The notes under the pieces were generated by a model that ran no database searches, had not been told where the DNA came from, and saw only the letters and a list, made by a program, of their open reading frames with translations. Shown here piece by piece: positions 940 to 16,972 of a DNA stretch of 64,000 bases. The translations under genes and the position numbers were made by a program. Origin of the DNA: a phage; sequence record PV467749.1; one strand, 5' to 3'. Within the stretch, counting starts at the first letter, position 1. The number at the start of each line of letters is the position of its first letter.

Positions 940-1012
940 ATTAATATGCCAGTACTTGAGTACTGGCTTTTCTTTTTGTATTAAATATAGTATAATGAAT
1001 AAGGGAGGAAAT
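940..1012 (+). promoter_or_regulatory. array cassette: terminator hairpin + TAAATA-N3-TATAAT + SD
   Basis: gccagtac-ttga-gtactggc 948-967 then T-run; ttaaatatagtataat; aagggagg before ATG 1013. Confidence 0.7.
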
Positions 1013-2122
1013 ATGTTACCTTTTGTAAGAATGGTTAAGTACGGGAATATTGCACCAGTACCGAAAAAAATAAAGAAAGTTATAGCAGGATATGATAATT
1101 TATATGTACTATATGGTGATGGTTCGCTATATGGTTGTGGAATCAATAACTATCAACAGTTAAATATTGATGGAACTGCTACACAAAATAATTGGGTACT
1201 AATTACCAATGGTGTTAGTAATGCATGGGCTGGTGGATACAATATTTTATATTTGAAAGAAGATAAATTTATAATGCACGGAACTAATGTCTCATTAGGT
1301 TTAGGAAATACTACAATTCCATTAGGTGGAGTAGATGTAACTTCTTCATTCCCAGATATCTCTAATATTAAAATGATATCCATTGGTTTTGATTCAATGC
1401 ACTATGTTAGTGCTGATGGTACAACTGTATATGGAAGAGGTATGAACACAAATGGTTCTGTTGGTTCAGGTAGTACTTACTCACAGAGTACTTTCACTTC
1501 AGTACTGAATAATGGAACTAATCAGGTTATTGATATATTTGGTAACGTTAATAATACAGTGCTTCTAACATCGAATGGTGAGCTTCGAGCATGTGGGACA
1601 AGTGCTTATGGTTCTATAGGAAATGAAACTGGTAAGTGGACATCGTTTGGTTTAAAATTATCTGGCACTAAAATAATGGGTGGTAATGGGTATAGTACGC
1701 TTGCATATACAAATTCGGGAATGTACCACTCAGGGTGGCAGTTAAATGGGGAACTAGGAAATGGTTTAAATACTAACGTACAGGTATATCCATTTCAATT
1801 TAACTCTAAAACGATAGATAGCAAGATAGATAAAATTGCCAAATCATCATCTGGGTCATATGTTAACATGTACTCAACAACAGAAGGAAAGATATATACG
1901 ACAGGTTCGTTTGGTAAAAACGGGTCAACTACTGCATTGAATTTGTTCACCAATACATTAACACTTATAAATTACAATCCAGATACCGCCTCGTTGTATA
2001 CGTGCACAAACTTCAGTGTTGTGTATGATGGTAATGAAACTATTGCTGTAAGTGGTAGTCCTACATATGTACCAGGGGGCGTTGCCGCTAATAGATGGAC
2101 TACAATTCCATTACCCAAGTAA
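1013..2122 (+). CDS. RCC1-like repeat protein, array member 2 (VKYGN subtype)
   Basis: Starts MLPFVRMVKYGNIAPVP at ATG 1013 after SD. ORF-track start 878 reads through the cassette and was rejected. Motif WQLNGELGNG; C-term WTTIPLPK. Confidence 0.85.
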   Translation: MLPFVRMVKYGNIAPVPKKIKKVIAGYDNLYVLYGDGSLYGCGINNYQQLNIDGTATQNNWVLITNGVSNAWAGGYNILYLKEDKFIMHGTNVSLGLGNTTIPLGGVDVTSSFPDISNIKMISIGFDSMHYVSADGTTVYGRGMNTNGSVGSGSTYSQSTFTSVLNNGTNQVIDIFGNVNNTVLLTSNGELRACGTSAYGSIGNETGKWTSFGLKLSGTKIMGGNGYSTLAYTNSGMYHSGWQLNGELGNGLNTNVQVYPFQFNSKTIDSKIDKIAKSSSGSYVNMYSTTEGKIYTTGSFGKNGSTTALNLFTNTLTLINYNPDTASLYTCTNFSVVYDGNETIAVSGSPTYVPGGVAANRWTTIPLPK

Positions 2123-2190
2123 TACTATGCCAGTACTTGATACTGGCTTTTTTTTGATTAAATATAGTATAATGAATAAAGGAGGGAATT
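2123..2190 (+). promoter_or_regulatory. array cassette: terminator + promoter + SD
   Basis: gccagta-cttga-tactggc 2129-2147 + T8; TAAATA 2159-2164, TATAAT 2168-2173, aaaggaggg 2178-2186. Confidence 0.7.
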
Positions 2191-3318
2191 ATGTTACCTT
2201 TTGTTAGAATGTTTGATTATGGGAATATAATCGAAGTTAATAATATAAAGAAAAGTGTTGTTAGTTACACTCTTGAAATGTTTCTAATGCAAGATGGCAC
2301 TGTATATGCACACGGTGAAGATTCAAACTATAATGCGGGTTTAAGTACACAGTTTGTATCGTTAGGAGCAGTTCAACAAATCACAACTGAAGTTGATGAC
2401 TTATGGTTAGGATCGTTTTCCGTTGTTATTAAAGGTGATAAAATATATGGTTCAGGTTCAACATATGCATTCACGAATTCTAATACTTTCCAACAAGGAT
2501 ATACTGACTGGGCTGTGTATTTCACTGGTATAGATGTTACCCAAATTAAAAAAATGTTATGTGGTTATACAGCATTTATATTAATGAAAGACGGAACACT
2601 TTATGGAAGAGGATGGAATCGAAGTGGTGCATTAGGTTTAGGACATAAAAATTATGTTTCAGCGTGGACTGTACTTGACACTAATGTGGATAATATATTT
2701 GGCGGTTACCTTGGCGATACATTGTTTAAGATTAAAAACGATGGAACTGTATATGGTTCAGGTTCAAATAACAGCTTTCAAGTTAAAGCAACATCGGGTG
2801 ATGCAACCACATTTGTTCCATTGTTTGATGATATATCTTATGATATAAAATGCAGTTTTGTTTCTGGTGTTGGTTTTGTAATGATAACATCTGATAATAA
2901 AATATATACAACTGGAACTACTTTTGCTGGTAGTGGTGCACATAGTAAAGTTTTTGATGTTGGTTTTACTATAGGTGATATGAGTAATATATATCATCCT
3001 GATTCGTTGGACTATTCGACTAGTGTTGTATTTTTAATTAATGCAGATACAAACAAACTAATAGCAACTGGGCATACCCCATTTACGGGAAGTAGTTCAA
3101 GTTCCCTTCCATATTTTACAGCATTTCAAGAATTCAATTTTACATCGTTCAATTCGAATACACGATATAGTGGGTCTTTATACTGGAATACATTTTACGA
3201 AGGTAATAATGTATGGATGAATGGATATAATCCTGAAAATACGGGTGGAAAGAATTTCTCATTGTGTTCAATACCGTTAGATACTATTATTACTAAGCAA
3301 ATTGATTTACCTTTTTGA
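2191..3318 (+). CDS. RCC1-like repeat protein, array member 3 (FDYGN subtype)
   Basis: MLPFVRMFDYGN start; GWNRSGALGLGHKN; C-term QIDLPF. Confidence 0.85.
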   Translation: MLPFVRMFDYGNIIEVNNIKKSVVSYTLEMFLMQDGTVYAHGEDSNYNAGLSTQFVSLGAVQQITTEVDDLWLGSFSVVIKGDKIYGSGSTYAFTNSNTFQQGYTDWAVYFTGIDVTQIKKMLCGYTAFILMKDGTLYGRGWNRSGALGLGHKNYVSAWTVLDTNVDNIFGGYLGDTLFKIKNDGTVYGSGSNNSFQVKATSGDATTFVPLFDDISYDIKCSFVSGVGFVMITSDNKIYTTGTTFAGSGAHSKVFDVGFTIGDMSNIYHPDSLDYSTSVVFLINADTNKLIATGHTPFTGSSSSSLPYFTAFQEFNFTSFNSNTRYSGSLYWNTFYEGNNVWMNGYNPENTGGKNFSLCSIPLDTIITKQIDLPF

Positions 3319-3388
3319 ATACTATGCCAGTACTTGATACTGGCTTTTTTTTTGATTAAATATAGTATAATGAATAAAGGAGGGAATT
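3319..3388 (+). promoter_or_regulatory. array cassette: terminator + promoter + SD
   Basis: gccagtacttgatactggc 3326-3344 + T-run; gattaaatatagtataatgaataaaggaggg. Confidence 0.7.
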
Positions 3389-4510
3389 ATGTTACCTTTT
3401 GTTAGAATGTTTGATTATGGAAATGAAGTACCTGATCCTAGTTCGGGATTTCGAATAATAAGTACAGGAGACGCATTACTATTAATTACTAAGAGTGGTG
3501 ATTTGTGGGTGCGTGGTTATAACCGTTATGGTAAGTTAGGTATAGGTAATAACACCACTACCTATGTACTTGATTGGACGAAGGTTAGAAGTGATGTAAA
3601 GTTTGCGTGTGGTAGTGGATTGGTAACAGTTATCTTTACTAAGGATAATCGCATATTGTACTGTGGTGACAAATGGTTTGAAACGGGTGGTGTTGGTAGT
3701 GCACAGATTTTCACATGGACAGATGTTACGCATCAATTTGGGGTAGTAGATTTGAGTACTGTAAGGGATATGAAAATATCTTATTACGCGATTGGGTTAG
3801 TTACTACTAATAATCAATTATACGCTAAGGGATTTGATAATAACCTATCATTTGGTGGGGTTACTAATAAGGCGACTGCTGTGTTTATTGCGAATAATGT
3901 ACAAGAGTTGTATACGAGTTTAGTTAGTACTATCTACGTTGATACAAGTGGTATATTACATCGTTGTGGCATGAGTGATAACGGTTCGTTGGGTAATAAT
4001 GGTAGTTTAACTTCGTATCTAAGTTATTCACAGACTGGTATGACGATTAAGGACATTGGAATGATGACTACGAACACTGGGTTATTATATACTGATTCTA
4101 GTGCACGCACGAGATATTTTATTGCTGGACAGAACTTGAATAAACAGATGGGTAATGCGGCGGGTGCGAGTGCCATTACGAGTACTTACACAGAGCTTTC
4201 TGGTAGTGTTGATAAGTTTTCTTCTTTATGGGAGAATGATGGGATATTGATGACATTTGCTGTGGGTAAGAACACTAATCAGTTATTTTATGCTGGGATG
4301 AATACTTTTCATGCGAGTGGTGGTGAATCTTCATATGCGGATACATATGAGTTAGTCCCGATGGTGTTTAATGACATACAGGAAGTGTTATGTGCACAGC
4401 GTTTATCGGTGGTACATGATTCTACGAAGTGGTATTACTGTGGTGATGCTAATTCAATGTATGGTTTACCGGACGTAAGTACTTTTACTGAGTTACCGTT
4501 GCCCTTTTAA
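3389..4510 (+). CDS. RCC1-like repeat protein, array member 4
   Basis: MLPFVRMFDYGN start; GYNRYGKLGIGNNT; C-term FTELPLPF. Confidence 0.85.
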   Translation: MLPFVRMFDYGNEVPDPSSGFRIISTGDALLLITKSGDLWVRGYNRYGKLGIGNNTTTYVLDWTKVRSDVKFACGSGLVTVIFTKDNRILYCGDKWFETGGVGSAQIFTWTDVTHQFGVVDLSTVRDMKISYYAIGLVTTNNQLYAKGFDNNLSFGGVTNKATAVFIANNVQELYTSLVSTIYVDTSGILHRCGMSDNGSLGNNGSLTSYLSYSQTGMTIKDIGMMTTNTGLLYTDSSARTRYFIAGQNLNKQMGNAAGASAITSTYTELSGSVDKFSSLWENDGILMTFAVGKNTNQLFYAGMNTFHASGGESSYADTYELVPMVFNDIQEVLCAQRLSVVHDSTKWYYCGDANSMYGLPDVSTFTELPLPF

Positions 4511-4581
4511 TAATAGGTCAGTACTCAAGTACTGGCTTTTCTTTTTGATTAAATATAGTATAATGAATAAAGGAGGGAATT
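4511..4581 (+). promoter_or_regulatory. array cassette: terminator + promoter + SD
   Basis: gtcagtactcaagtactggc 4517-4536 + T-run; same promoter/SD string. Confidence 0.7.
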
Positions 4582-5763
4582 ATGTTACCTTTTGTTAGAA
4601 TGTTTGATTATGGGAACGTCGTTGAGCCACCTGTGGGTACACGTTATACCTGTAGTGACTATAGTGCGACTTATAGTTTAATAAAGGATGGTGTGTTATA
4701 TGTATCTGGGATGAATAACTATTATCAGTTAGGTAATAACACTAACGTAACACGTTACAACGAGTGGTTAAAAGTTCCAGAGACTGATAGTGTTAAGTTT
4801 TGTAGTACTGGTTATAGTCAGACAATGTATCTGACTAACAATGGTAGGATAATGATAGCAGGTGAAGATCCTACTTCCAGTGCGACTTCGGTAAGTGTAA
4901 AGGTTTGGACGGATATAACTTCTAGATTTCGTGCAGTTGATACTAAAAAGATTGTTTATATTTCAATAGAACGCTTTGGTGTAATGATGATCATGGAAGA
5001 TGGTTCAGTATGGGCGTGTGGTGTTGATAATACTGGTTGGAGTGGACAAGGGAGTAAGACTGTTGGTTTCTTTACTTTCAGACAAATATACACCGGAAGT
5101 GCAGGAAGTGCAGTTGCTTGTACTGCTGGTACTGGTACTGCGAGAATTCTGTTAGCTAATGGAACAATCTTGTCCTCTGGTACTAATACATATCATCAAT
5201 GTAATGCTAGTACTAATCCGGCTGTTCTAACATTCACTGAATCATTCCCTGGGGTTGATCCTTCATTGATATATCAAATCAAGATGTGTAATAACAACTG
5301 TATTATATTTTTGAGTGATAAGAGATATTACGGTACTGGCTGGGGAAGTTTTGGTGCATTGGGTGATGGTGATATTACGGGTTCGAATAATAAATTCTAT
5401 GCAGGTACATTGTCAGTTGCTCCTAAAAACATGCGTGCTTATATGTCGTATCTATGTAGTTCTTCTGGGGATTCTAGTATGTACATAGGCGATGATAATT
5501 TCATATACACCTGCGGTTATCGTGGGAGGAACTTAATAAATGCCACTACAGATATTGGTACGTTCACGAAATGCATTCAAAGTGCACAAGGATACAAGAA
5601 TGGACTTATATATAGTGGGAATTATTGTGCTGTAGTTTTTGATCCAGATTTGGGTTCAGGAATGTCATATGCGGTTTCATCACCAAAATTGAATTCTCCA
5701 GCACCACAGGCTAGTGTTCCAGCATTGGGTATGAGTTCGTTACAATCTATCATTTTACCATAA
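4582..5763 (+). CDS. RCC1-like repeat protein, array member 5
   Basis: MLPFVRMFDYGN start; MNNYYQLGNNTN, GWGSFGALGDGD. Confidence 0.85.
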   Translation: MLPFVRMFDYGNVVEPPVGTRYTCSDYSATYSLIKDGVLYVSGMNNYYQLGNNTNVTRYNEWLKVPETDSVKFCSTGYSQTMYLTNNGRIMIAGEDPTSSATSVSVKVWTDITSRFRAVDTKKIVYISIERFGVMMIMEDGSVWACGVDNTGWSGQGSKTVGFFTFRQIYTGSAGSAVACTAGTGTARILLANGTILSSGTNTYHQCNASTNPAVLTFTESFPGVDPSLIYQIKMCNNNCIIFLSDKRYYGTGWGSFGALGDGDITGSNNKFYAGTLSVAPKNMRAYMSYLCSSSGDSSMYIGDDNFIYTCGYRGRNLINATTDIGTFTKCIQSAQGYKNGLIYSGNYCAVVFDPDLGSGMSYAVSSPKLNSPAPQASVPALGMSSLQSIILP

Positions 5764-5837
5764 ATGATACCAGTACTGAAATACGTACTGGTATTTTTTT
5801 GTAAATACATTATAATTATTATATGGAGATTTTAGTT
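5764..5837 (+). promoter_or_regulatory. variant array cassette: terminator + promoter + SD
   Basis: accagtac-tgaaatac-gtactggt 5769-5792 + T7; gtaaatacattataat; ggag before ATG 5838. Confidence 0.65.
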
Positions 5838-6968
5838 ATGTTACCTTTTGTTAGAATGTTTGATTATGGGAATACAGTGGCTGCTCCCACTGGTATAAAG
5901 GATTTCCAAGCAAATGGAAGCCACTGTATGGCACTAACATATAGTGGTGAGATGTGGGCTTATGGTACAAGTACAAGTGGATCAATGGGAACCGGATTCA
6001 CGGTGGGTGCTGCTGATAAGGGTTGGTACAAGTCTAACATTAGTAATGTTAAATCATTCAGTTCTAATATGCAGACTAGCACAGTGGCTTTGACAAATGA
6101 TGATAGAGTGCTAGTTTGTGGCTCAACTAGATTTGACAAATTCAGTACTCCAGATATTGCATCATCTAACCTTGATTGGTTGGATGTTACTGATCATATT
6201 CCACAGGAAGTTATTGATGCTGGGATGAAGCAAGTTATTAACCACGCATATTATGTTGCCATTTTTACTGAAAACAATCTATTATATAGTGTGGCATTAT
6301 CTTTGGGTAATACTAGTACTATAATAGATAGAACATGGCGAAGAAATACATTTGGTGATATACAAGTTGAACGTGTTGTTTCGTTGACACAAACCCCAAG
6401 TGGTCCTTTGTGTATAGTTCAAGATGCTGCCGGATACCAGTATGGTATTGGATATAATGGTAATAAGATTATTGATAATACTTCCACTAATTCATATTCT
6501 GTATATACCAAAATGGGTACACTTCCTTACAATGAATTTGCCATATCGAATAGCGGGAAATTCAGTTCAGCGGTATTATCAGATGGGAGAAGTGTTTATA
6601 GTGGTACATTTCCAAAGTCATTCAATGATAGTTTTGGTTCATTTTTGAAAGTTGGTGCGGTATCAAATACTGTGTTTGGTTTAGATGCAAAAAATATGCG
6701 TGGTCAATATGGTCAAAATCAATTACCAATTGCGTCGGCTGATAACAATGCAAGTAATGGCGTTGTGAGCCTTCGTAATGTTCCAGCGGGAACACAAACG
6801 AAAGACATTCGATTTATATGCGGAAATGATGTAAAGAACGTTTATATCATATACACAAATGAAGACGGCATTAGTTCATTTTATGGATTGGGACCAAACT
6901 TTGATCAAAATTCCTCAGCATATGCACAATTCGTCAAAGTGGATTTGCCAGGGGCATTACTAAATTAA
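5838..6968 (+). CDS. divergent propeller-repeat protein, array member 6
   Basis: MLPFVRMFDYGN at internal Met of ORF 5823; weaker repeats (GTSTSGSMGTG); C-term FVKVDLPG. Confidence 0.8.
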   Translation: MLPFVRMFDYGNTVAAPTGIKDFQANGSHCMALTYSGEMWAYGTSTSGSMGTGFTVGAADKGWYKSNISNVKSFSSNMQTSTVALTNDDRVLVCGSTRFDKFSTPDIASSNLDWLDVTDHIPQEVIDAGMKQVINHAYYVAIFTENNLLYSVALSLGNTSTIIDRTWRRNTFGDIQVERVVSLTQTPSGPLCIVQDAAGYQYGIGYNGNKIIDNTSTNSYSVYTKMGTLPYNEFAISNSGKFSSAVLSDGRSVYSGTFPKSFNDSFGSFLKVGAVSNTVFGLDAKNMRGQYGQNQLPIASADNNASNGVVSLRNVPAGTQTKDIRFICGNDVKNVYIIYTNEDGISSFYGLGPNFDQNSSAYAQFVKVDLPGALLN

Positions 6969-6978
6969 GGAGAGAAAT

Positions 6979-8181: not shown

Positions 8182-8189
8182 GAGGAATT

Positions 8190-9299
8190 ATGTTACCTTT
8201 TGTAAGACTATTTGATTATGGGAATATTACCTCTGGTCCTAAAAATATAATTAAAGTTGGTGCTTCTACTCAAGGTCAATTCGTATTGACTGATTCACAT
8301 GAATTGTATTACATAGGCAGAAATCAAGGTGGTGAATCTGGAAATGGTAATAAAAACACGGTATCTTCTTGGACATTAGTAAGTGCAGATGTTTCTAATT
8401 TTTTCACTGGAGGACGAACACTTGTTATTATTAAAAATGACAATACGATATGGACATCAGGTGAAACATTTTGGTTCACATCATCATCAACAACTTCTTA
8501 CAGTACTACATTAGTTGATAGAACGGAGTGGTTTACAAATACAATTCCTGTGAATCAAATTGCTAATATTGTATGCAATGGTGGTGTAATATTTGTACTC
8601 AGTTCAAGTTCAGTACTCTATGGTGCTGGGGCTAATGGATACCGTGGTGTATTGGGGATTGGTTCTTCATCAATATATACATTAACACTATGTGCTTCTA
8701 ATGTGCGTAAAGTTATGTCTACTCCTAATGATAGTATGTATATTAGCATAGATAATAAGTTATATAGTTCAGGGTGGAATGACCGTGGATTACATGGCAC
8801 AGGGAACAGAACACAAGTTAACATTTGGGGACTGCGTAGTTCTGGTGTAATAGATGCAGCTATTGGTGGACATACACTCAATTACTATAATGGTACATCA
8901 TATTTCACATGTGGTACAACTCCAAACTTTCTTAGTTCAGATTCAACTACATTCAAAGCAGTTCCTGTAAGTACTTTACCTAATAATTCACCTTTGTTTA
9001 TGACAAATTCAGAGGCAACAAGCACGGCTACGCAAATTATATTAACTAGTGCATATCAGAAAGGTATTGGGGGAAACCGTGGTTTGGGATTAAACAATTC
9101 TCAAACGGGTGCTATCTATAGTGCTGCTAATTTACAATTACCTGTAGAAGTTAGTGAGATTAGTGATGTTGCTTTTAGTGACGGATTAACATCATTATTA
9201 ACCAAAGACGGGAATGTATATAGTACTGGATCGTATTACGCCATTCCAGGTGCAAGTGCAGATGTTGCAGTCTTTACTAAAATTGATTTACCAAAATAA
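8190..9299 (+). CDS. RCC1-like repeat protein, array member 8
   Basis: MLPFVRLFDYGN at ATG 8190 after taggagg; no cassette upstream; GRNQGGESGNGNKN, GWNDRGLHGTGN; C-term FTKIDLPK. Confidence 0.85.
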   Translation: MLPFVRLFDYGNITSGPKNIIKVGASTQGQFVLTDSHELYYIGRNQGGESGNGNKNTVSSWTLVSADVSNFFTGGRTLVIIKNDNTIWTSGETFWFTSSSTTSYSTTLVDRTEWFTNTIPVNQIANIVCNGGVIFVLSSSSVLYGAGANGYRGVLGIGSSSIYTLTLCASNVRKVMSTPNDSMYISIDNKLYSSGWNDRGLHGTGNRTQVNIWGLRSSGVIDAAIGGHTLNYYNGTSYFTCGTTPNFLSSDSTTFKAVPVSTLPNNSPLFMTNSEATSTATQIILTSAYQKGIGGNRGLGLNNSQTGAIYSAANLQLPVEVSEISDVAFSDGLTSLLTKDGNVYSTGSYYAIPGASADVAVFTKIDLPK

Positions 9300-9369
9300 C
9301 ATAATGCCAGTACAGAGTACTGGCTTTTCTTTTTGGTTAAATATAGTATAATGAATAAAGGAGGGAATT
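9300..9369 (+). promoter_or_regulatory. array cassette: terminator + promoter + SD
   Basis: gccagtacagagtactggc 9306-9324 + T-run; ggttaaatatagtataatgaataaaggaggg. Confidence 0.7.
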
Positions 9370-10539
9370 ATGTTACCTTTTGCAAGAATGGTTAAGTACG
9401 GGAATATTGCACCTGTTCGCCCTGAAATAAAGAAATTGGATGGTAGTCAATCACATGTCGGATTACTATATAGTACTGGTAATATGTATATGCGTGGTTC
9501 TGGTTCGAACTACCAGTTAGGTACAGGTGATGCTAGTGATGTATTAGATGGTTGGGTACATGTACCCTATGAAGTTGATGATTTTTGGGCGTGTGTGTTC
9601 GGTACATTAATAAAGACTAAAGACAATAAGTTATATTGTGCAGGACTATCAATGGGTGGATATTTTGGTGCTAGTGGTTCATATGTTAACTGGACTGAAG
9701 TAACTTCATTATTTGTGGGTATTAACGTCTCACAAATAAAGAATATAGAATTTACATCAGCGAATACTTCCGGTAGTACACTAATATTGATGTTAGATGG
9801 TAGTTTATATGGGTTCGGCATGAACAGTAGATCAGAGTTAGGTGTTACAAACAAAGTCGTATCTCCTATTCTTATAGATACTGGGGTAAGTTCAATAGGA
9901 GCACATAAATTAGGTGGTTCATCGTTCCATTATATAAAAGACGGTAAGTACTACAGATGTGGAACATCGGTTGGTCGTAATATTGGGATTTCTTCTTTGA
10001 CTACTTTTACTGAATTGAGTATTCCTGATAACGTTATATCTATGCAAATATTATATGACAACGTACAGTTATTATGTTTAGGAAGTTCTGGATATAGTAT
10101 CTATATGGCTGGTTCGAATAATTATGGTGGAAGAGGTGTTGATGGTAGTACTATTTACTCTACATTCAGGAAAATAGATCTTACTGGATTTGGTGTTGTT
10201 CCCAGTGAAATACTATTTGAAAATGCAGGGAATGGTTATGTTAATATATCAACTGATAGTACTGGCATATATACATGTGGTGGTGGTGCTGGTGTTAATG
10301 GTTTAGGTAGACCGAGTAATGTGATATCAAGTTCACAGTTGGGTTTGATTGAGTTCAGTACAGGATTATACCCAGCAAATATAAGTCGTGTATTTTCACA
10401 GAGTTCATCTTCTGTTATATATTGTATAGTTAATAATGAATTGTACTGGGCTGGGAGTAATTCATATTTTACTGATCAAACTACAAATACTGGTACACAA
10501 TTTTCATTTATTAAGATGAAGGATATGCCTTCTGCTTAG
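9370..10539 (+). CDS. RCC1-like repeat protein, array member 9 (VKYGN subtype)
   Basis: MLPFARMVKYGNIAPVRP; GSGSNYQLGTGD, GMNSRSELGV. Confidence 0.85.
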   Translation: MLPFARMVKYGNIAPVRPEIKKLDGSQSHVGLLYSTGNMYMRGSGSNYQLGTGDASDVLDGWVHVPYEVDDFWACVFGTLIKTKDNKLYCAGLSMGGYFGASGSYVNWTEVTSLFVGINVSQIKNIEFTSANTSGSTLILMLDGSLYGFGMNSRSELGVTNKVVSPILIDTGVSSIGAHKLGGSSFHYIKDGKYYRCGTSVGRNIGISSLTTFTELSIPDNVISMQILYDNVQLLCLGSSGYSIYMAGSNNYGGRGVDGSTIYSTFRKIDLTGFGVVPSEILFENAGNGYVNISTDSTGIYTCGGGAGVNGLGRPSNVISSSQLGLIEFSTGLYPANISRVFSQSSSSVIYCIVNNELYWAGSNSYFTDQTTNTGTQFSFIKMKDMPSA

Positions 10540-10612
10540 ATTTTATGCCAGTACTTGATACTGGCTTTTCTTTTTTGTATTAAATATAGTATAATGAATA
10601 AAGGAGGGAATT
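10540..10612 (+). promoter_or_regulatory. array cassette: terminator + promoter + SD
   Basis: gccagtacttgatactggc 10547-10565 + T-run; canonical promoter/SD string. Confidence 0.7.
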
Positions 10613-11792
10613 ATGTTACCTTTTGTTAGATTATTTGATTATGGGAATATTGCCCCTGTCAAAGATACTGTTGTTAAAATTAATAGTGATGAAAATTCAA
10701 TAAGCGTATTATACAGTGATGGGTCATTATATATGCGTGGACGGAAACCAATCAGCAAAAATGGGAGTTACTGGTTCATCTTTTTTGGATAGATGGGTTT
10801 TATGTCCTTATAGTGTTGATGATTTCTGGAGTTCTCTATATTGTACTATAATTAGAACAAAACAAGGGGAATTGTACTATAGTGGGACTAACTCAGTTTT
10901 TGGTATATCATCTTCGGTTTCAACATGGACTCGTTGTGAATCATATTTTGGATCTATTTCTCCGAGTTCAATAAAAGATATAAAAATAACATCATCAACC
11001 GGAACTAACAATTCCATGTTAATACTAACAAGTGACGGGCAGTTATATGGTATAGGCATGAATGGTGCAAGTGAATTGGGTACAGCAACTGCACCAATTA
11101 CATCTCCACTCTTAATTGACACTAGTGTATCTGCAATTGCATCTAGTGAAATGAGCAGAAACTTTCACTATATAAAAGATGGTATATATTATCGTTGTGG
11201 TGAGAATACTTTTTATCAATTAGGAACCGGTGATAATAAGCCTATTACTAGTTTTACTGCATTGAATCTTGGTAGTTCTCATGTAATTGCAGTACAAGCT
11301 ACACGATGGGTAACACGTTTGATTGTTCAAAGTAGTACATCTGCTTTGTCTTTAATGGCGGCTGGTTGGAACACACAGTTGACTATAGGTGGTTCTGAAA
11401 ATACTGGTATAATAAGGTCATCATTTACTACCAATCCCTATACCGATATAACAGCAAATTCATTCGATAAACTTTCACCAGTATCCTATGTTAATGCAAT
11501 AAAATCCAGTACTAACATTATTAATACGAATGGTAAGGGATATAATTCTAATGGTGCTGGTTTAGGCCGCAACGCAGTCTCTGGGAATTATGGTTCAATA
11601 TTACCAATAGAATTCTTTGATGATAGTGTTGACTTATCACATGTTGAGTGGTTTGGTACGATTGGTAATGGTTCAGTATCGGTAGTTAGTATAGGTGAGG
11701 ATTTATACTGGACTGGAAACCCTGGGTATTTTACTGAACAAGGTGAGACTGGATATATATATAAATTCAAAAAGTGCGTTCCTTTTAGATAA
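10613..11792 (+). pseudogene. RCC1-like array member 10, frame disrupted near nt 10739-10743
   Basis: ATG 10613 gives MLPFVRLFDYGNIAPVKD...SLYMRG and then hits a stop at 10790. The homologous continuation (GNQSAKMGVTGSSFLDRWVLCPYSVDDFW, compare member 9) is in the +1 frame, i.e. ORF 10716..11792. Confidence 0.7.
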
Positions 11793-11863
11793 ACACAATG
11801 CCAGTACTTGAGTACTGGCATTCTTTTTGATTAAATATAGTATAATGAATAAAGGAGGGAAAT
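11793..11863 (+). promoter_or_regulatory. array cassette: terminator + promoter + SD
   Basis: gccagtacttgagtactggc 11800-11819 + T-run; canonical string. Confidence 0.7.
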
Positions 11864-13042
11864 ATGTTACCTTTTGTTAGAATGTTTGATTATGGAAATA
11901 TTACACCTGGTGTACCAACACCAAAAGATTTCTTTTTGGATGTATCATCTGGCAAACCTACTATGTTGATGCTTTTGGATAACGGCGAAGTATGGGGTTG
12001 TAGTAATGATGGACAACTATTAGGTTTAAACACTACCGCGTCAGCATACGGTAAGCCATACTTTGTTATGGAAAATGTTAAGTTAATGTTCGCGTCAGTG
12101 TGGGGGACATTACTTATCACTAACGATAATAAAGTGAAGTACACTGGCAGACAAACCATGTTTAATGGTTCATCAAATTATTGGAGTACTTTTCAAGATT
12201 TTACAACGAAGTACACTGCTGTTGGTATTGACATAAGTACTATAGAAAAAGTTGGATTCAATACTGGTACATTATTCCTACGCACAACTAATGGTGATTT
12301 ATGGGGTCATGGAAATAACGCTAATGGTTATTTCGGAAAAGGAAATACCGTGGCGAATTACACACCAACCAAGATCAAGACTAATACATTAGATTTTTGG
12401 TTAACTAATGGGAATGCAATTGTACAAACTGGCACTAAAGAATTCTATGCTACTGGTGATAATTATTATTATCAAATGGGTGTTACGACTACTGGTAATA
12501 TAACAACATGGACACAGATTTTTAAGGACGCTACTGATGATCCTGAGTTTGAATATAATGCAATGCGAACAAGTCAAGCAACATTAATACTTTACGGTAA
12601 AGGAACTACATTCTACGCAAGTGGGAGAAACTATATGAGTTCATGGGGTGTATCTGGAGCACCAGTGGATGTTAATACTACACTATATAAAGGTACGTTA
12701 CCATTTGTACCCGGTGATTTAACATATTTTTATGCTGGTCGAGAACAAGCATATTGGACTAACTTAATCATTGATACTAATGGAGTTCTGTACATATCTG
12801 GAACAAAAGATGGGGGTGGTGGTTCAAATGCACCTATATTTGAAGTATTACCGACCCCAAGTAGTGCAGTTGGGTTCAAATGTGGCACAGCAACACGTTC
12901 TTATGCTATAATGGATTGTACTGGCAATCAATTTATGTACGCACGTGGTACAGCTTTGTCAGACCCTGCTGGCTTTACACCAATGAGTACACCATTAAAT
13001 CATACATGGACACACATAACAGATTTTAAATTTAACCGATAA
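11864..13042 (+). CDS. RCC1-like repeat protein, array member 11
   Basis: MLPFVRMFDYGN; GNNANGYFGKGN, GDNYYYQMGV. Confidence 0.85.
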   Translation: MLPFVRMFDYGNITPGVPTPKDFFLDVSSGKPTMLMLLDNGEVWGCSNDGQLLGLNTTASAYGKPYFVMENVKLMFASVWGTLLITNDNKVKYTGRQTMFNGSSNYWSTFQDFTTKYTAVGIDISTIEKVGFNTGTLFLRTTNGDLWGHGNNANGYFGKGNTVANYTPTKIKTNTLDFWLTNGNAIVQTGTKEFYATGDNYYYQMGVTTTGNITTWTQIFKDATDDPEFEYNAMRTSQATLILYGKGTTFYASGRNYMSSWGVSGAPVDVNTTLYKGTLPFVPGDLTYFYAGREQAYWTNLIIDTNGVLYISGTKDGGGGSNAPIFEVLPTPSSAVGFKCGTATRSYAIMDCTGNQFMYARGTALSDPAGFTPMSTPLNHTWTHITDFKFNR

Positions 13043-13112
13043 TATTATGCCAGTACTTGATACTGGCATTTCTTTTTGTATTAAATATAGTATAATGAAT
13101 AAAGGAGGAAAT
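13043..13112 (+). promoter_or_regulatory. array cassette: terminator + promoter + SD
   Basis: gccagtacttgatactggc 13049-13067 + T-run; canonical string. Confidence 0.7.
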
Positions 13113-14288
13113 ATGTTACCTTTTGCAAGAATGGTTAAGTACGGAAACAGAGTTCCAGCACCTTCAGGTGTTATGAAGATAAGTACATCTCCATCACATA
13201 TGGGTATGTTATTTGATAGTGGTAACTTATATCTACGTGGAAATGGTGCACACTATATGCTAGGAAATAATAGCACTGCGTATGTGCAAAATGGGTGGGT
13301 ACAGTGTCCATATAAAGTTTCTAATGTTTGGTGCTTCTTTGCAGCAACAATTATACTTACGACTGACGGAGAATTTTACTTAGCTGGTCAAATGGGTTAT
13401 GTCGGTGTATCTGCATCACCAGTTCCTGGATGGACTAATATCACATCTTTATTGTCTACAATACCAGCACTTACTACAGTAGTAGATATAGCTGCTACTG
13501 AAACTACTGCATCAAATGGTGCGTTATTGATTTTGTTAAGTAATGGGGACTTATATGGGATTGGGCGTAATACAGGAGGTGCATTGGGTGTTACTGGTAG
13601 AAAAACAACGCCAATTCAGATTGCTACTGGGGTTACTATAATTGCGGGAACAACGGCTGGGGATGCTTTCCATTATGTTAAAAATAATCAATACTACAGA
13701 TGTGGGAATAACGCAAGTTACAACTTAGGATCAGGTTCTTCTAACCTTTCGACATTTACGGTAAGTACTGATATATCGGGAACAGTTATTGGTATTTCAT
13801 GTACTACATTAACGACTTCAGTACTTACATCTAATAGAAATAATATTAATGTATATACGGCTGGAAAAAACACTGATTATTGTTTAGGAATAGGGTATGG
13901 CGACACTACTAGTATCATGAGTCCATTTAGTGCCACTCCCGCAATTAGTGGTATTATACCAGATGCTGGGTCGATGAACAATCACAGTTTGAATTATTTT
14001 ATAATGGCAATGACACAGAATGGTAAACTTTATACATGTGGTAGTGGTGTTCCTCTTGGTTGGCCTGTTACTACTGCATCAGAAAGATCTTATTACCACC
14101 AGGTACAATATGAGGATATGGATGTTGCACCAGATGTTAATGCATTTTCAGTTCAAGGTGGTTCTGGTGTGTTATACGCGTTAGTGGGGACTAATGAGGT
14201 GTACTGGTGTGGTAACGGGTCTATGTTTCAGGAACAGAGTCCAGGTACACAACAAGTTAAAATGAAGAAAATGATTTTACCAGAATAA
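13113..14288 (+). CDS. RCC1-like repeat protein, array member 12 (VKYGN subtype)
   Basis: MLPFARMVKYGNRVPAP at Met23 of ORF 13047; GRNTGGALGV, GNNASYNLGSG; C-term KKMILPE. Confidence 0.85.
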   Translation: MLPFARMVKYGNRVPAPSGVMKISTSPSHMGMLFDSGNLYLRGNGAHYMLGNNSTAYVQNGWVQCPYKVSNVWCFFAATIILTTDGEFYLAGQMGYVGVSASPVPGWTNITSLLSTIPALTTVVDIAATETTASNGALLILLSNGDLYGIGRNTGGALGVTGRKTTPIQIATGVTIIAGTTAGDAFHYVKNNQYYRCGNNASYNLGSGSSNLSTFTVSTDISGTVIGISCTTLTTSVLTSNRNNINVYTAGKNTDYCLGIGYGDTTSIMSPFSATPAISGIIPDAGSMNNHSLNYFIMAMTQNGKLYTCGSGVPLGWPVTTASERSYYHQVQYEDMDVAPDVNAFSVQGGSGVLYALVGTNEVYWCGNGSMFQEQSPGTQQVKMKKMILPE

Positions 14289-14367
14289 AATGTGAAATAC
14301 AATGCATGTACTCAGTACTGGCTTTTCTTTTTTATTAAATATAGTATAATGAATAAAGGAGGGAAAT
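14289..14367 (+). promoter_or_regulatory. array cassette with degenerate hairpin
   Basis: gcatgtactcagtactggc 14303-14321 (two mismatches in the stem) + T-run; canonical promoter/SD. Confidence 0.55.
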
Positions 14368-15717
14368 ATGTTACCTTTTGTTAGAATGTTTGATTATGGG
14401 AATACAGTAGATGTTCCAACTGTAAAGAAATTCGACTCCATTGGTATGGGTCATGATAGGAATGGTGGTGGTAATTGGTTTGGTGCAATATTAGCATCAA
14501 ATGGAAATTTATATGGTATTGGTCAAACAAAATATGTTTCTTTTGGTATAACACCAACCAATGGTACAGGAATTGAATTAGTACGAAAAAATGTAAACAA
14601 TTTTTGGCTACTATCAAATGGAATAATAGTTAAAGATAATGATGGTTCATATCATTTTTGTGGTGTATATGCAAATGGAATATTCACACATTCAAGTATA
14701 ACTACAGCACCTTTTATAACAAATGGTTTTATAAATGTATCTTCTTATTTTTCTAACGTAGGTGAAGTTGTGGAAATGGTATTCTGTGGTGGATATGATA
14801 AAGGTCCAGCAACATCATTAACCCCAGCATACACTTCAAAATATAGTTGTATTTTGGCAGCATTGAACACTAATGGTGAAATCTGGTATATGGGTTTGTC
14901 GATACAAGGTTTAATAAACAACTCCACATCAGATTACTACTTTACTTCTTTTACTAAAGATAATCAATTGACACAAAAAGCAGTTTCATTAAGATGCACA
15001 ATAGACATGTCACATAATAATGTGTATTTTGTTGGTAATAGACCTGTACTTTATGCCAAATTAGAAGATGGTACAATCGTAGGCAAGGGATATAATATAC
15101 GATATGGTATACAAAAACCAGCTAGTACAAACCAAGTGATTAAAACGTGGACTACAGTGGCTGTAATCGGAACAGCAGATGATTTTGATGCAACAAACGA
15201 AGGCATGATGTACTGCTCAAATTCACAACTATATCGCTGTGGTAATGGTGGTGGTTTTTCTTTCTGGAATGGTACAAGTAGTGTGTATTATATGGGCTAC
15301 AACGTTGGTATGTTTCTAATCGGTGCGAATGACGTCAACCGTGTAGCGGGTGGTTTTAACGTCCTAACTACAGGGATTAAAGATGATGTAGGTATAAATG
15401 TACCAACTTCATCCAGTACCAAAATACGAATGAACTACTGTGGAACTGTAATTTTTGAACCCGGAACAACATCAATATATAAAGCACATGGTGTTTATAG
15501 TGATTACTATGCTAGTCCTTCATGGCAAGCGGGAGCAGTCGCTTCATTTACATATGAAGACATTGGTATTAAAATCAAAGATGCTATGTATGTTGGTGGT
15601 ACTCTTGGGTTTACAACATATGGATTATTAGTGGTTAGTACTGAAGGTAAGGTATATTGGAGAGGTGTGTACAACGGTGTAACATATAAAACACTCACAG
15701 AAATACATTTGTTGTAA
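14368..15717 (+). CDS. divergent propeller-like protein, array member 13 (449 aa)
   Basis: MLPFVRMFDYGN start. The body is poorly RCC1-like; membership rests on the N-terminus and the cassette. Confidence 0.75.
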   Translation: MLPFVRMFDYGNTVDVPTVKKFDSIGMGHDRNGGGNWFGAILASNGNLYGIGQTKYVSFGITPTNGTGIELVRKNVNNFWLLSNGIIVKDNDGSYHFCGVYANGIFTHSSITTAPFITNGFINVSSYFSNVGEVVEMVFCGGYDKGPATSLTPAYTSKYSCILAALNTNGEIWYMGLSIQGLINNSTSDYYFTSFTKDNQLTQKAVSLRCTIDMSHNNVYFVGNRPVLYAKLEDGTIVGKGYNIRYGIQKPASTNQVIKTWTTVAVIGTADDFDATNEGMMYCSNSQLYRCGNGGGFSFWNGTSSVYYMGYNVGMFLIGANDVNRVAGGFNVLTTGIKDDVGINVPTSSSTKIRMNYCGTVIFEPGTTSIYKAHGVYSDYYASPSWQAGAVASFTYEDIGIKIKDAMYVGGTLGFTTYGLLVVSTEGKVYWRGVYNGVTYKTLTEIHLL

Positions 15718-15787
15718 TATAGTGCCAGTACTCTGTACTGGCTTTTCTTTTTGTATTAAATATAGTATAATGAATAAAGGAGGAATT
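15718..15787 (+). promoter_or_regulatory. array cassette: terminator + promoter + SD
   Basis: gccagtactctgtactggc 15723-15741 + T-run; canonical string. Confidence 0.7.
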
Positions 15788-16939: not shown

Positions 16940-16945
16940 AATAAT

Positions 16946-16965: not shown

Positions 16966-16972
16966 ATTTCTT

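What the first reader, a model, noticed from the sequence alone, without database searches (positions are those of the whole stretch)
940..15787. Terminator-promoter-RBS-N-terminus unit repeated at least 10 times as long direct repeats
Eleven inter-gene gaps carry nearly the same string: ATGCCAGTACTTGA(G)TACTGGCTTTTCTTTTTGATTAAATATAGTATAATGAATAAAGGAGGGAATTATG. It runs on into about 36 conserved coding nucleotides (atgttaccttttgttagaatgtttgattatggg). That gives direct repeats of about 100 bp spaced 1.1-1.4 kb apart. Each gene is therefore an autonomous transcription unit, and the repeats are ideal substrates for unequal recombination (expansion, contraction, shuffling). Member 10 supports this. 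It has an FDYGN-type start (MLPFVRLFDYGNIAPV), but its body is closest to the VKYGN-type members 9 and 12 (HYIKDG.YYRCG, CPY.V.DFW).
Basis: seen in the sequence. Interest (0 to 1): 0.7.

Follow-up and report, generated by a model that had tools for sequence, protein, structure and literature searches.

The report
Repeated promoter-plus-tag cassette in phage array
A giant E. coli phage carries about 15 tandem genes for virion-associated beta-propeller proteins, most preceded by the same ~100-base terminator, promoter, ribosome-site and 12-codon unit, and comparison with related phages shows that whole genes are gained, lost and shuffled at this unit.

Summary
Ten near-identical units (about 104 nt, 91% pairwise identity) and one diverged variant precede 11 of the 14 complete array genes. 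Each unit holds a hairpin with a T-run, TAAATAYnnTATAAT, AAGGAGG, ATG and 12 codons. Identity falls to about 38% after codon 12.

The window comes from an Asteriusvirus-type jumbo coliphage. The genes are RCC1-like seven-bladed propellers, only 13-33% identical to each other (alignment-wide).

The recombination reading holds in seven genomes:
- Arrays hold 9-16 genes in shuffled order.
- Homology breaks cluster at the unit edges.
- Unit type and N-terminal variant follow the genome, not the ortholog.
- Single cassettes are 99.4-99.7% identical between phages whose flanks are about 82% identical.

It is also frameshifted, identically in four genomes.

New points:
- Published virion mass spectrometry of phage phAPEC6 detected these proteins.
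- The 12-residue N-terminus is disordered in the model, conserved across genera, and fused to other folds (Kelch, glycine-rich).

It therefore looks like a portable virion-incorporation tag. The closest analogues are the T4-type PeSL cassettes and the T4 capsid-targeting sequence. Promoter activity, its timing and the tag's function are untested.

The parts
1..939 (+). Array member A (RCC1-like), 5' end cut by the window start
   Evidence: Open frame from base 1. Pfam RCC1 and RCC1_2 above their cut-offs. Ortholog group A is the first array gene in WPEC3, EC.P1 and UE-S1. Its phAPEC6 ortholog gp549 was detected in virions.
946..1048 (+). Unit 1: hairpin 948-967, T-run, TAAATATAGTATAAT 982-996, GGGAGG, ATG 1013, codons 1-12
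1013..2122 (+). Member K, 369 aa, MLPFVRMVKYGN start, seven-bladed RCC1-like propeller
   Evidence: AF2 pLDDT 89, pTM 0.88, residues 1-12 disordered. Foldseek top hits UVR8, RPGR, HERC2 and RCC1. Pfam.
2127..2226 (+). Unit 2 (hairpin 2129-2147, promoter core 2159-2173, ATG 2191)
2191..3318 (+). Member k, 375 aa, MLPFVRMFDYGN start
3324..3424 (+). Unit 3 (hairpin 3326-3344, core 3357-3371, ATG 3389)
3389..4510 (+). Member E, 373 aa
   Evidence: Pfam. 99.7% identical to the EJP2 ortholog although the flanks are about 82% identical.
4515..4617 (+). Unit 4 (hairpin 4515-4538, core 4550-4564, ATG 4582)
   Evidence: The orthologous gene C carries a different (type-2) unit in EC.P1, UE-S1 and EJP2.
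4582..5763 (+). Member C, 393 aa
5766..5873 (+). Unit 5, diverged 'type 2' variant (hairpin 5766-5795, TAAATACATTATAAT 5802-5816, GGAGA, ATG 5838)
   Evidence: This is the dominant unit type in phage EJP2.
5838..6968 (+). Member H, 376 aa
6979..8181 (+). Member J, 400 aa. No unit upstream: SD and ATG lie 10 nt after the stop of H
8190..9299 (+). Member B, 369 aa. No unit upstream: ATG lies 8 nt after the stop of J
9304..9405 (+). Unit 6 (hairpin 9306-9324, core 9338-9352, ATG 9370)
9370..10539 (+). Member N, 389 aa
   Evidence: Pfam. Its phAPEC6 ortholog gp010 was detected in virions.
10545..10648 (+). Unit 7 (hairpin 10547-10565, core 10581-10595, ATG 10613)
10613..11792 (+). Frameshifted near 10742: frame 0 stops at 10792 and the RCC1 body continues in the +1 frame to 11792
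   Evidence: The same frameshift is present in EC.P1, PBECO4 and WPEC3 with no other disruption. The N-terminal conversion patch is shown.
11797..11899 (+). Unit 8 (hairpin 11797-11822, core 11832-11846, ATG 11864)
11864..13042 (+). Member T, 392 aa
13047..13148 (+). Unit 9 (hairpin 13047-13069, core 13082-13096, ATG 13113)
13113..14288 (+). Member S, 391 aa
   Evidence: Pfam. An 87%-identical phAPEC6 homolog of the same group, gp006, was detected in virions.
14302..14403 (+). Unit 10 (degenerate hairpin 14302-14322 with two mismatches, core 14336-14350, ATG 14368)
   Evidence: Not reported by the terminator scan.
14368..15717 (+). Member L, 449 aa, diverged RCC1-like propeller with an insertion
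   Evidence: No Pfam hit. phrog_4219 at 3e-16. AF2 pTM 0.72, with UVR8 as the top Foldseek hit.
15722..15823 (+). Unit 11 (hairpin 15724-15742, core 15757-15771, ATG 15788)
15788..16939 (+). Member F, 383 aa
   Evidence: Pfam. Its phAPEC6 ortholog gp005 was detected in virions.
16943..16968 (+). Terminator hairpin of the same CCAGTAC/GTACTGG type after member F, with no promoter part
17701..18825 (+). Detached member M, 374 aa, MLPFVLLFDYGN start. It has its own upstream region with TAAATAAAGTATAAC at 17671-17685 and is followed by hairpin 18830-18856

Best explanation
The repeat is a composite regulatory-plus-tag cassette. It flanks the members of a tandem array of virion-associated propeller genes in an Asteriusvirus-type jumbo coliphage. 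Each unit contains, in order:
- an intrinsic terminator for the upstream gene (GCCAGTAC-loop-GTACTGGC followed by a T-run);
- a promoter-like core TAAATAYnnTATAAT;
- a strong Shine-Dalgarno sequence and the ATG;
- 12 codons for an N-terminal peptide, MLPF-x-R-M-x-x-Y-G-N.

The unit does two things.

(1) Expression (inferred). It makes most members separately terminated and separately initiated transcription units with identical translation starts. It also gives every product the same disordered N-terminal handle. I propose that this handle is the signal by which otherwise unrelated cargo domains are incorporated into the virion.

(2) Recombination (shown by comparison). Its roughly 100 bp of near-identity, with exact shared stretches of 23-75 nt, is portable homology. 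The phage's T4-type recombination system uses it for crossing-over and short-patch gene conversion between cassettes. This happens within a genome or between co-infecting relatives. The results are whole-gene gain, loss, replacement and reordering, and homogenised units and N-termini within each lineage.
For: Anatomy and significance.

Bodies against unit:
- Paralog bodies are 13-33% identical alignment-wide (mean 19%; 24-44% in local BLASTP matches). The first 12 residues are 83% identical.
- At positions with the same amino acid, the codon is also the same in 79% of cases in the N-terminus and 45% in the bodies.

Shuffling:
- Array strings of seven genomes show 9-16 members, 37 ortholog groups and changed order.
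- Where two genomes share the upstream gene but differ downstream, homology mostly ends at +28 to +51 from the ATG. Where they share the downstream gene but differ upstream, it ends at -85 to -57, or at about 0 when the unit types differ.
- The window and WPEC3 share cassettes at 99-100% identity yet differ in cassette content. Cassettes E and H are 99.4-99.7% identical between the window and EJP2, whose flanks are about 82% identical.

Concerted evolution:
- Ortholog C starts VRMFDYGN in the window, VRMLEYGN in EJP2 and GRMVKYGN in UE-S1, and its unit type also differs between genomes.
- Codons 5-10 are at least as similar between paralogs of one genome (0.756) as between orthologs of different clades (0.726).
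- Gene I shows an 8-of-15-nt patch against PBECO4.

Promoter:
- The core TAAATAYnnTATAAT occurs at the 11 array units and at one other exact site in 64 kb. That site lies before the only other + strand gene, 47334-48491, the ortholog of the phAPEC6 virion protein gp077.
- ATAAATACGTTATAAT through to the ATG is conserved there although the gene is only 75% identical.
- Homologous hairpin plus ATTAAATAyNNTATAwT units occur in Salmonella phage Munch and Erwinia phage Hallingskeid.
- The late consensus ATAAATA is reported for Rak2-like phages (PMC5259590). TATAAATA lies before the phAPEC6 head genes.

Virion association and tag:
- phAPEC6 mass spectrometry detected gp003, 005, 006, 007, 009, 010, 549 and 551 (PMC7247149).
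- The seven of these that I translated all start MLPF..YGN. Four belong to ortholog groups present in the window: A, F, N and S.
- The RCC1-like GAP32 gp001 is a mass-spectrometry-verified structural protein.
- Residues 1-12 are disordered in a confident propeller model.
- The tag is kept on coupled genes, on genes with type-2 units and in other genera.
- The tag is fused to a Kelch propeller, a Gly_rich_2 domain and a phrog_6011 'virion structural protein'.
Against: - No transcript data exist. The promoter-like site lacks a -35 element and does not match this phage's own early consensus TTGACA-N9-CAGTACTGTATAAT. It is also one base off the late consensus, so its class and timing are guesses.
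- Three of 14 genes have no type-1 or type-2 unit, and one hairpin is degenerate.
- Roughly a third of the breakpoint calls fall outside the two unit edges. The method is a crude sliding-window one.
- Purifying selection on a shared regulatory element and a functional peptide would by itself keep the unit similar. Co-evolution with a docking partner could also produce lineage-specific N-termini.
- Virion detection rests on 1-5 peptides per paralog in one study of a related phage.
- The tag's role has never been tested, and the data do not say whether the proteins sit inside the head or on the surface.
Confidence: 0.72

Rival explanations
1. The repeats are passive relics of tandem duplication. 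They are kept similar only by purifying selection on a good terminator, promoter and RBS and on a functional N-terminal peptide. They play no special part in recombination.
For: The unit is 90-100% conserved in 36 genomes of the group. Its core is recognisable in other genera. The peptide is conserved even where the DNA and the upstream unit differ. So selection certainly acts on it.
Against: - Orthologous genes carry different unit types and different N-terminal variants in different genomes, matching their non-orthologous neighbours.
- Codon identity in the N-terminus is excessive: 79% against 45% in the bodies.
- A conversion patch is visible in gene I.
- Synteny breaks sit at the unit edges.
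- Cassette-level identities are incongruent with the flanks.
Confidence: 0.1
2. The N-terminal 36 nt are conserved for an RNA- or DNA-level reason, such as a translation-initiation region kept unstructured, a downstream-box-like enhancer or a regulator's target. The peptide itself has no function.
For: Synonymous sites are unusually conserved within a genome. The conserved block runs seamlessly from the SD into the coding sequence.
Against: - The peptide pattern M-[LI]-P-F-x-[RK]-x-x-x-[YF]-G-N survives where nucleotides differ. Munch and Hallingskeid use ATGATACCA/T instead of ATGTTACCT. Distant homologs with 23-30% identical bodies also keep it.
- It survives in front of translationally coupled genes that lack the unit.
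- No Rfam family matches the region.
Confidence: 0.08
3. The tag is a head-internal targeting signal like the T4 capsid-targeting sequence. On this view the array is a library of packaged and ejected proteins, for example inhibitors of host defences, rather than surface adhesins. This rivals only the 'surface display' sub-reading of the best explanation.
For: [quoted passage not shown]
- These phages have a T4-type prohead core and protease, and an inner body.
- The virion abundance of the paralogs is low.
- The RCC1-like propeller BLIP-II, an enzyme inhibitor, is among the structural matches.
Against: - No conserved (L/I)xE cleavage motif follows the tag.
- Rigid 40-kDa propellers are poor ejection substrates (inference).
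- RCC1 propellers occur at the C-termini of annotated tail fibres in other phages.
- Kelch and lectin-like cargo domains suggest binding on the outside.
Confidence: 0.35
4. The unit is a small non-autonomous mobile element (MITE-like or homing-associated) that has inserted between the genes.
For: It contains a palindromic hairpin and is present in many copies.
Against: - In the two other stretches I could check, the 45 kb of window outside the array and the 50-kb phAPEC6 structural region, it does not occur, and copy numbers per genome (3-12) fit the array sizes.
- It always has the same orientation and the same register with a start codon, and it continues into the coding sequence.
- It has no terminal inverted repeats beyond the terminator stem. 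No target-site duplication or transposase was seen.
Confidence: 0.02

Closest known systems
PeSL (promoter-early stem-loop) cassettes of T4-type phages (Arbiol et al. 2010, PMC2839356; Comeau et al. 2014, PMC4122927)
   Same: Both are composite intergenic motifs of upstream stop codon, stem-loop terminator, promoter, SD and start codon. Both are repeated many times in a hyperplastic region. Insertions, deletions and replacements between related phages end in the motif, so it serves as portable homology for modular shuffling (for PeSL; here).
   Different: - PeSLs carry a full sigma-70 consensus (-35, -10, UP element) and drive early ORFans of unrelated sequence. This unit has no -35 element. 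It combines a late-like TAAATA core with TATAAT.
- This unit flanks one family of virion-associated genes.
- Its homology continues 36 nt into the coding sequence as a conserved peptide tag.
- The stem sequence itself is conserved.
- Mini-circles and promoter or terminator activity have not been tested here.
Capsid-targeting sequence (CTS) of T-even internal proteins (review PMC3012670)
   Same: A short conserved N-terminal peptide is the only feature shared by a diverse, fast-evolving set of virion-packaged proteins. In T4 the peptide is portable to foreign cargo. Here it sits on RCC1, Kelch, glycine-rich and other domains.
   Different: There is no sequence similarity to the T4 CTS and no conserved protease cleavage motif after the tag. 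The location of the proteins in the virion is unknown, and the cargoes are larger (25-50 kDa).
Receptor-binding proteins and tail fibres with a conserved N-terminal anchor and a variable C-terminal binding domain
   Same: The logic is the same: a conserved N-terminus with exchangeable distal domains. RCC1-like propellers are found at the C-termini of annotated tail fibres in Pseudomonas phages Littlefix and PollyC, and one occurs in gp40 of Salmonella phage PVP-SE1, whose entry carries no fibre annotation.
   Different: The anchor here is only 12 disordered residues, not a folded domain. The proteins model as monomeric globular propellers without a fibrous shaft. No link to host range has been shown.
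RCC1-like 'DNA condensation protein' paralogs already reported in Rak2-like jumbo phages (phAPEC6, 121Q, PBECO4, GAP32)
   Same: They are the same gene family and the same array. Eleven copies are noted in phAPEC6 and multiple copies in 121Q and PBECO4, and the proteins were detected in virions.
   Different: None of the eight papers I queried describes the repeated cassette, the conserved dodecapeptide, concerted evolution or cassette shuffling. The 'chromosome condensation' label comes from the eukaryotic family name and has no support here.

Membership tests
PeSL cassette | Stable stem-loop acting as terminator or attenuator between genes | tested here: met
   Stems of 7-11 bp followed by a T-run at 10 of the 11 units. 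The terminator scan found 25 sites against 8.1 expected. Folding energies are -12 to -19 kcal/mol. ARNOLD-predicted terminators are annotated at the same places in the G17 record. Termination activity was not measured.
PeSL cassette | Sigma-70 consensus early promoter (-35, -10, AT-rich UP element) | tested here: not met
   A perfect TATAAT is present but no -35 hexamer lies 16-18 nt upstream. None of the unit sites appears in the displayed part of the sigma-70 scan (60 of 83 sites shown). The phage's own early promoters read TTGACA-N9-CAGTACTGTATAAT and the unit does not.
PeSL cassette | Concentrated in a hyperplastic region next to variable genes | tested here: met
   No record covers more than 53% of the array. 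There are 37 ortholog groups in 7 genomes.
PeSL cassette | Insertion, deletion and replacement end-points between related phages lie in the cassette | tested here: met
   Breakpoints cluster at +28 to +51 and at -85 to -57 relative to the ATG. Junction sequences are shown.
PeSL cassette | Recombination between neighbouring cassettes yields mini-circles | not testable with these tools
   Needs outward-facing PCR or long reads on phage DNA.
RCC1-like seven-bladed beta-propeller | Sequence repeats of the RCC1 type | tested here: met
   Every member except E (3389) and L (14368) passes the curated cut-off of PF00415 or PF13540. PF25390 matches all members but L, always below its 150-bit cut-off. 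Member L matches only phrog_4219.
RCC1-like seven-bladed beta-propeller | Seven-bladed propeller fold | tested here: met
   AF2 model of member K has pLDDT 89 and pTM 0.88. Foldseek gives TM 0.68-0.79 to UVR8, RPGR, HERC2 and RCC1. Member L gives TMt 0.68 to UVR8.
RCC1-like seven-bladed beta-propeller | Guanine-nucleotide exchange or chromatin ('chromosome condensation') function | not testable with these tools
   No evidence. The annotation is inherited from the family name.
T4-type capsid-targeting sequence | Short conserved N-terminal leader shared by otherwise diverse virion proteins | tested here: met
   Residues 1-12 are 83% identical against 19% for the bodies. The leader is present on four PHROG families. 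The proteins were detected in virions.
T4-type capsid-targeting sequence | Sequence similarity to the T4 CTS and cleavage by the prohead protease at (L/I)xE after the leader | tested here: not met
   No conserved Glu or (L/I)xE follows the tag in the 14 members. The T4 CTS and motif are recalled from memory. Whether cleavage occurs cannot be seen from sequence.
T4-type capsid-targeting sequence | Location inside the head, bound to the scaffolding core | not testable with these tools
   The mass-spectrometry data give presence in virions only.
Tail fibre / receptor-binding protein | Virion-associated, with a conserved N-terminal attachment part and a variable distal domain | tested here: met
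Tail fibre / receptor-binding protein | Elongated, usually trimeric shaft, with a shown role in adsorption | tested here: inconclusive
   The monomer model is a globular propeller with no shaft. Oligomeric state and adsorption role were not testable.

The most novel reading that the evidence does not exclude
The 12-residue N-terminus M-[LI]-P-F-x-R-x-x-x-Y-G-N is a universal, portable virion-incorporation handle of Rak2-like jumbo phages. Together with its terminator and promoter it would form a self-contained 'express-and-load' cassette. Any domain placed behind it (RCC1 or Kelch propeller, glycine-rich or lectin-like domain) would be made at the right time and mounted on, or packed into, the particle. 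Because the cassette is also the recombination substrate, the phage population would hold an exchangeable library of display or ejection modules. That would be functionally like an integron array without an integrase. It would also give an engineerable tag for loading foreign proteins onto a jumbo phage.
Probability: 0.4. Interest if true: 0.72.

Novelty: new variant of a known kind. Interest (0 to 1): 0.55.

Why it matters
- It shows how a giant phage builds and rapidly reshuffles a 15-20 kb block of paralogous virion genes. One roughly 100-bp module supplies the transcription stop, the transcription start, the translation start and a common protein handle. The same module is the homology at which cassettes are exchanged.
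- It extends the PeSL idea beyond T4-type early ORFans to virion-associated genes, and into the coding sequence.
- It replaces the uninformative 'chromosome condensation protein' label with a testable model: a tagged library of binding modules.
- If the tag is sufficient for virion incorporation, it would be a simple tool for decorating or loading jumbo phages.
- The variable cassette repertoire becomes a candidate determinant of host range, adhesion or defence evasion among otherwise near-identical therapeutic coliphages.

Tried and rejected
- Sigma-70 promoter reading: the scan gave no -35/-10 match among the displayed sites for the units. I dropped 'early PeSL-type promoter' in favour of a late-like core plus TATAAT.
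- 'Velcro strand' reading, in which the conserved N-terminus closes the propeller: rejected, because residues 1-12 are disordered and lie outside the fold in two models.
- Known RNA family: none at gathering threshold in 1-19500.
- Sequencing error as the cause of the frameshift in gene I: rejected, because the identical frameshift is present in four independently sequenced genomes.
- Programmed +1 frameshift in gene I: considered, but no slippery site lies at the homology-defined shift point. The T6 run near 10780 would replace about 17 residues of a blade. Left open as unlikely.
- Strand-oriented (Chi-like) reading of the over-represented AGTACTG motif: the bias is weak, 44 against 21 in one region and none in phAPEC6.
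- Paralogy of the seven minus-strand ORFs at 18862-21301: not detectable at E below 1e-5.
- The IMG/VR scan for the unit returned only the 121Q genome.
- The word-indexed protein search returned only 15 hits, so it could not measure family size.
- Literature searches for transcriptomes of these phages and for the AGTACT enrichment found nothing.
- CMSTMSU was left out of the cassette comparison because its record is full of frameshifts.

Full report
**Source of the window**

Megablast of 900-16000 hits 37 phage records, all Escherichia or Salmonella jumbo phages of 310-386 kb. They include PBECO4, 121Q-like phages, G17, UE-S1, WPEC3 and EJP2 (Asteriusvirus). No record covers more than 53% of the query in one place. 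The window is 35.1% G+C. So this is an Asteriusvirus-type jumbo coliphage, and the region is mosaic even among close relatives.

**The observation**

- The 32-mer around the promoter-like part occurs 10 times at up to 3 mismatches, against 0 in shuffles.
- The coding start ATGTTACCTTT[TC]G occurs 14 times, all on the + strand.
- Ten gaps carry a near-identical unit. An eleventh, before 5838, carries a diverged variant with the same architecture.
- The genes at 6979 and 8190 follow the preceding stop after 8-10 nt with only a Shine-Dalgarno sequence. The gene at 17701 has its own upstream region.
- From the hairpin to codon 12 the block is about 104 nt with 91% mean pairwise identity (minimum 85%). 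Identity is 43% just upstream and 38% in codons 13-24. Both edges of the block are therefore sharp.
- The hairpins (GCCAGTAC-loop-GTACTGGC followed by a T-run) are called as intrinsic terminators, 25 against 8.1 expected. They fold at -12 to -19 kcal/mol.
- The G17 record annotates ARNOLD terminators at the same junctions. The UE-S1 record annotates 105-nt 'repeat_region' features there.
- The hairpin before 14368 has two stem mismatches.

**The genes**

- Fifteen + strand genes belong to the array. One is cut by the window start (1-939). Thirteen are intact with an MLPF start. One, at 10613, is frameshifted.
- All members but L match Pfam RCC1-type models, and all but E and L pass a curated cut-off. 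L matches the RCC1-like phrog_4219.
- An AlphaFold2 model of the gene at 1013 is a confident seven-bladed propeller (pLDDT 89, pTM 0.88). It is closest to UVR8, RPGR, HERC2 and RCC1 at TM 0.68-0.79.
- The 449-aa member is a diverged propeller with an insertion.
- The paralogs are only 13-33% identical alignment-wide (mean 19%; 24-44% in local BLASTP matches). Their first 12 residues are 83% identical.

**Test of the recombination idea**

I fetched the arrays of UE-S1, EC.P1, PBECO4, WPEC3, G17 and EJP2 and grouped all members at 80% protein identity. I* marks the frameshifted member. The order strings are:

| Genome | Order of ortholog groups |
|---|---|
| UE-S1 | A E C B F O D G U |
| EC.P1 | A K E C H B I* P D G L Q M |
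| PBECO4 | J B V A D I* F G W X |
| WPEC3 | A K C H J B N I* P D G F R L Q M |
| G17 | Y J B Z A a D O S b R N |
| EJP2 | H B c A E C d e f g h i T j |
| window | A K k E C H J B N I* T S L F M |

- There are 37 groups in seven genomes, 9-16 members per array, and clear reordering.
- Where two genomes share the upstream gene but differ downstream, homology mostly ends at +28 to +51 from the ATG. Where they share the downstream gene but differ upstream, it ends at -85 to -57, or near 0 when the unit types differ. These are the two edges of the unit.
- The window and WPEC3 share cassettes at 99-100% identity and flanks at 99%. Yet they differ by several whole cassettes.
- Cassettes E and H are 99.4-99.7% identical between the window and EJP2. 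Their flanks are about 82% identical, and cassettes A, B and T are 79-87% identical. That is cassette-level horizontal exchange.
- The longest exact stretches shared by two units are 23-75 nt, median 33. By my own knowledge this is enough for RecA/UvsX-type recombination. phAPEC6 encodes a RecA-like protein and recombination endonuclease subunits.

**Concerted evolution**

- The variable positions of the tag (residues 5, 8 and 9) and the unit type follow the genome, not the ortholog.
  - FDY types occur in the window, WPEC3 and EC.P1, plus one copy in UE-S1.
  - LEY occurs only in EJP2.
  - MMNY occurs in PBECO4 and G17.
  - VKY dominates in UE-S1 and phAPEC6.
- Ortholog C has a type-1 unit in the window and WPEC3 but a type-2 unit in EC.P1, UE-S1 and EJP2. 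EJP2 uses type 2 almost throughout.
- Codons 5-10 are as similar between non-orthologous paralogs of one genome (0.756) as between orthologs of different clades (0.726). Unrelated pairs score 0.697.
- At positions with the same amino acid, the codon is also the same in 79% of cases in the tag and 45% in the bodies.
Against PBECO4 it differs at 8 of 15 nt in codons 5-9, between identical neighbouring codons (1-4 and 10-15), in a gene otherwise about 98% identical.
The same frameshift, with no other lesion, is present in EC.P1, WPEC3 and PBECO4. The 8 synonymous and 11 non-synonymous codon differences from PBECO4 are too few to decide between a pseudogene and a gene still in use.

**The promoter-like part**

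- It has a perfect TATAAT but no -35 element.
- The phage's own early promoters on the minus strand read TTGACA-N9-CAGTACTGTATAAT.
- Head and tail genes of phAPEC6 carry a T4-like TATAAATA. ATAAATA is the published late consensus of Rak2-like phages, which encode a gp55-like sigma factor.
- All three unit types share TAAATAYnnTATAAT. That core occurs at the 11 units and at only one other exact site in the window, 47297.
  - The site lies in front of the only other + strand gene, 47334-48491.
  - That gene is the ortholog of phAPEC6 gp077, a virion protein with 10 peptides and 38% coverage.
  - ATAAATACGTTATAAT through to the ATG is conserved between the two phages although the gene is only 75% identical.
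- Homologous units (hairpin, T-run, ATTAAATAyNNTATAwT) also occur at some junctions of the arrays of Salmonella phage Munch and Erwinia phage Hallingskeid. Most junctions there are translationally coupled.
- I infer a functional promoter, probably of a middle or late class. This is not shown.

**What the proteins are for**

- Published ESI-MS/MS of phAPEC6 virions lists gp003, 005, 006, 007, 009, 010, 549 and 551 as 'DNA condensation protein', with 1-5 unique peptides each (PMC7247149).
- The seven of these that I translated from the phAPEC6 record (gp551 lay outside the stretches fetched) are array members starting MLPF..YGN. Five of them follow a type-1 unit; gp549, the first array gene, follows the type-3 variant, and gp003 and gp009 have none. 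Groups A, F, N and S are shared with the window.
- GAP32 gp001, the single RCC1-like gene of that phage, is also a mass-spectrometry-verified structural protein.
- The tag is outside the fold and disordered in both models. It is present in all phage homologs found, down to 23% body identity, and absent from a bacterial RCC1 protein.
- In other arrays the tag is fused to other folds:
  - EJP2 gene c is a Kelch propeller (PF24681, 2.7e-22).
  - Munch 7145 and G17 gene O belong to phrog_4474, and the Munch protein matches the Gly_rich_2 domain.
  - Hallingskeid 15117 is a phrog_6011 'virion structural protein'.
- The tag therefore behaves as a portable module. The best reading is a virion-incorporation handle.
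- Whether the cargo sits inside the head or outside on the capsid or fibres is open.
  - Inside would resemble T4 internal proteins, which share only a capsid-targeting sequence (PMC3012670).
  - Outside would fit the RCC1 propellers found at tail-fibre C-termini in other phages and the lectin-type propellers among the matches.
- No (L/I)xE protease motif follows the tag.

**Comparison with what is known**

- The unit works like a PeSL (PMC2839356, PMC4122927). It fails the defining sigma-70 early-promoter feature, extends into the coding sequence and serves one family of virion genes. I therefore file it as a new variant of that kind, not as a member.
- The RCC1-like array itself and its virion association are already published. 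None of the eight papers I queried describes the cassette, the dodecapeptide, concerted evolution or shuffling.

**Limits**

- There are no transcript data, population data or localisation data.
- The breakpoint calls are crude, and about a third fall outside the unit edges.
- The Mann-Whitney values come from non-independent pairs.
- Exchange between co-infecting phages and intragenomic unequal crossing-over cannot be told apart.

**Verdict**

Interest is moderate. The novel part is the fusion of a PeSL-like recombination and regulation cassette with a portable protein tag.

Noticed in passing
whole window; also L010 (phAPEC6 135001-185000) and L007 (EJP2): The palindrome that forms the terminator stems is hugely over-represented genome-wide. 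AGTACT occurs 184 times in 64 kb against about 20 expected (the top hexamer), 91 against 14 in the phAPEC6 structural region, and 142 against 12 in the EJP2 locus. CAGTACT/AGTACTG occurs 129 times against 5.9 expected outside the array. Sites lie mostly inside genes and show only weak strand bias. No explanation was found, and nothing turned up in the literature search.
   Followed up: partly
window 1-64000: Several 6-bp palindromes are completely absent although 3-10 copies are expected: CCATGG, CAGCTG, AGGCCT and AGCGCT. This looks like restriction-site avoidance.
   Followed up: no
window 10613-11792: Array member I is split by a frameshift near 10742. The identical frameshift, with an otherwise intact 358-codon body, is kept in EC.P1, WPEC3 and PBECO4. 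It is either an old pseudogene or a gene still expressed in some way.
   Followed up: partly
window 948-967, 4515-4538, 9306-9324, 15724-15742, 16943-16968: The hairpin loops occur in both orientations between copies: TTGA against TCAA, and AGA against TCT, the central bases of stems that read ..GTACAGAGTAC.. and ..GTACTCTGTAC... This is the pattern expected from loop flipping at a palindrome by template switching or cruciform processing.
   Followed up: no
window minus strand at 24352, 35217, 39179, 57709, 58130 (and 56950): The early-type promoters of the small minus-strand genes share an unusual consensus, TTGACA/TTGACT-N9-CAGTACTG-TATAAT. The over-represented palindrome sits in the spacer next to the -10 element.
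   Followed up: no
window 47297-48491: This is the only + strand gene inside the minus-strand early region. It encodes a 385-aa virion structural protein (phrog_10468; ortholog of phAPEC6 gp077, mass spectrometry 38% coverage). It is preceded by ATAAATACGTTATAAT, the same bipartite core as in the array units.
   Followed up: yes
window 16973-17623 (minus strand): A 216-aa minus-strand ORF (phrog_34359, unknown function) separates the last array member from the rest. It is conserved at this position in UE-S1, EC.P1, PBECO4, WPEC3, G17 and phAPEC6.
   Followed up: no
L004 (WPEC3) 2375-6777; L005 (G17) 6123-10126: Immediately upstream of the RCC1-like array, relatives carry a second tandem array of about 20 minus-strand ORFs of roughly 60 aa each. 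[quoted passage not shown] It lies outside this window.
   Followed up: no
window 25021-26056 and 53056-53824 (minus strand): Small tandem paralog sets occur among the minus-strand genes: three ORFs of about 113 aa and two of about 120-138 aa.
   Followed up: no
L013 (Salmonella phage Munch), L014 (Erwinia phage Hallingskeid): Other jumbo-phage genera hold the same kind of array (at least 12 and 10 members). The tag reads MIPFxR[IM]xxYGN. Most junctions are translationally coupled, and the terminator-promoter unit occurs only every few genes. So the unit-at-nearly-every-junction state of Asteriusvirus is derived.
   Followed up: partly
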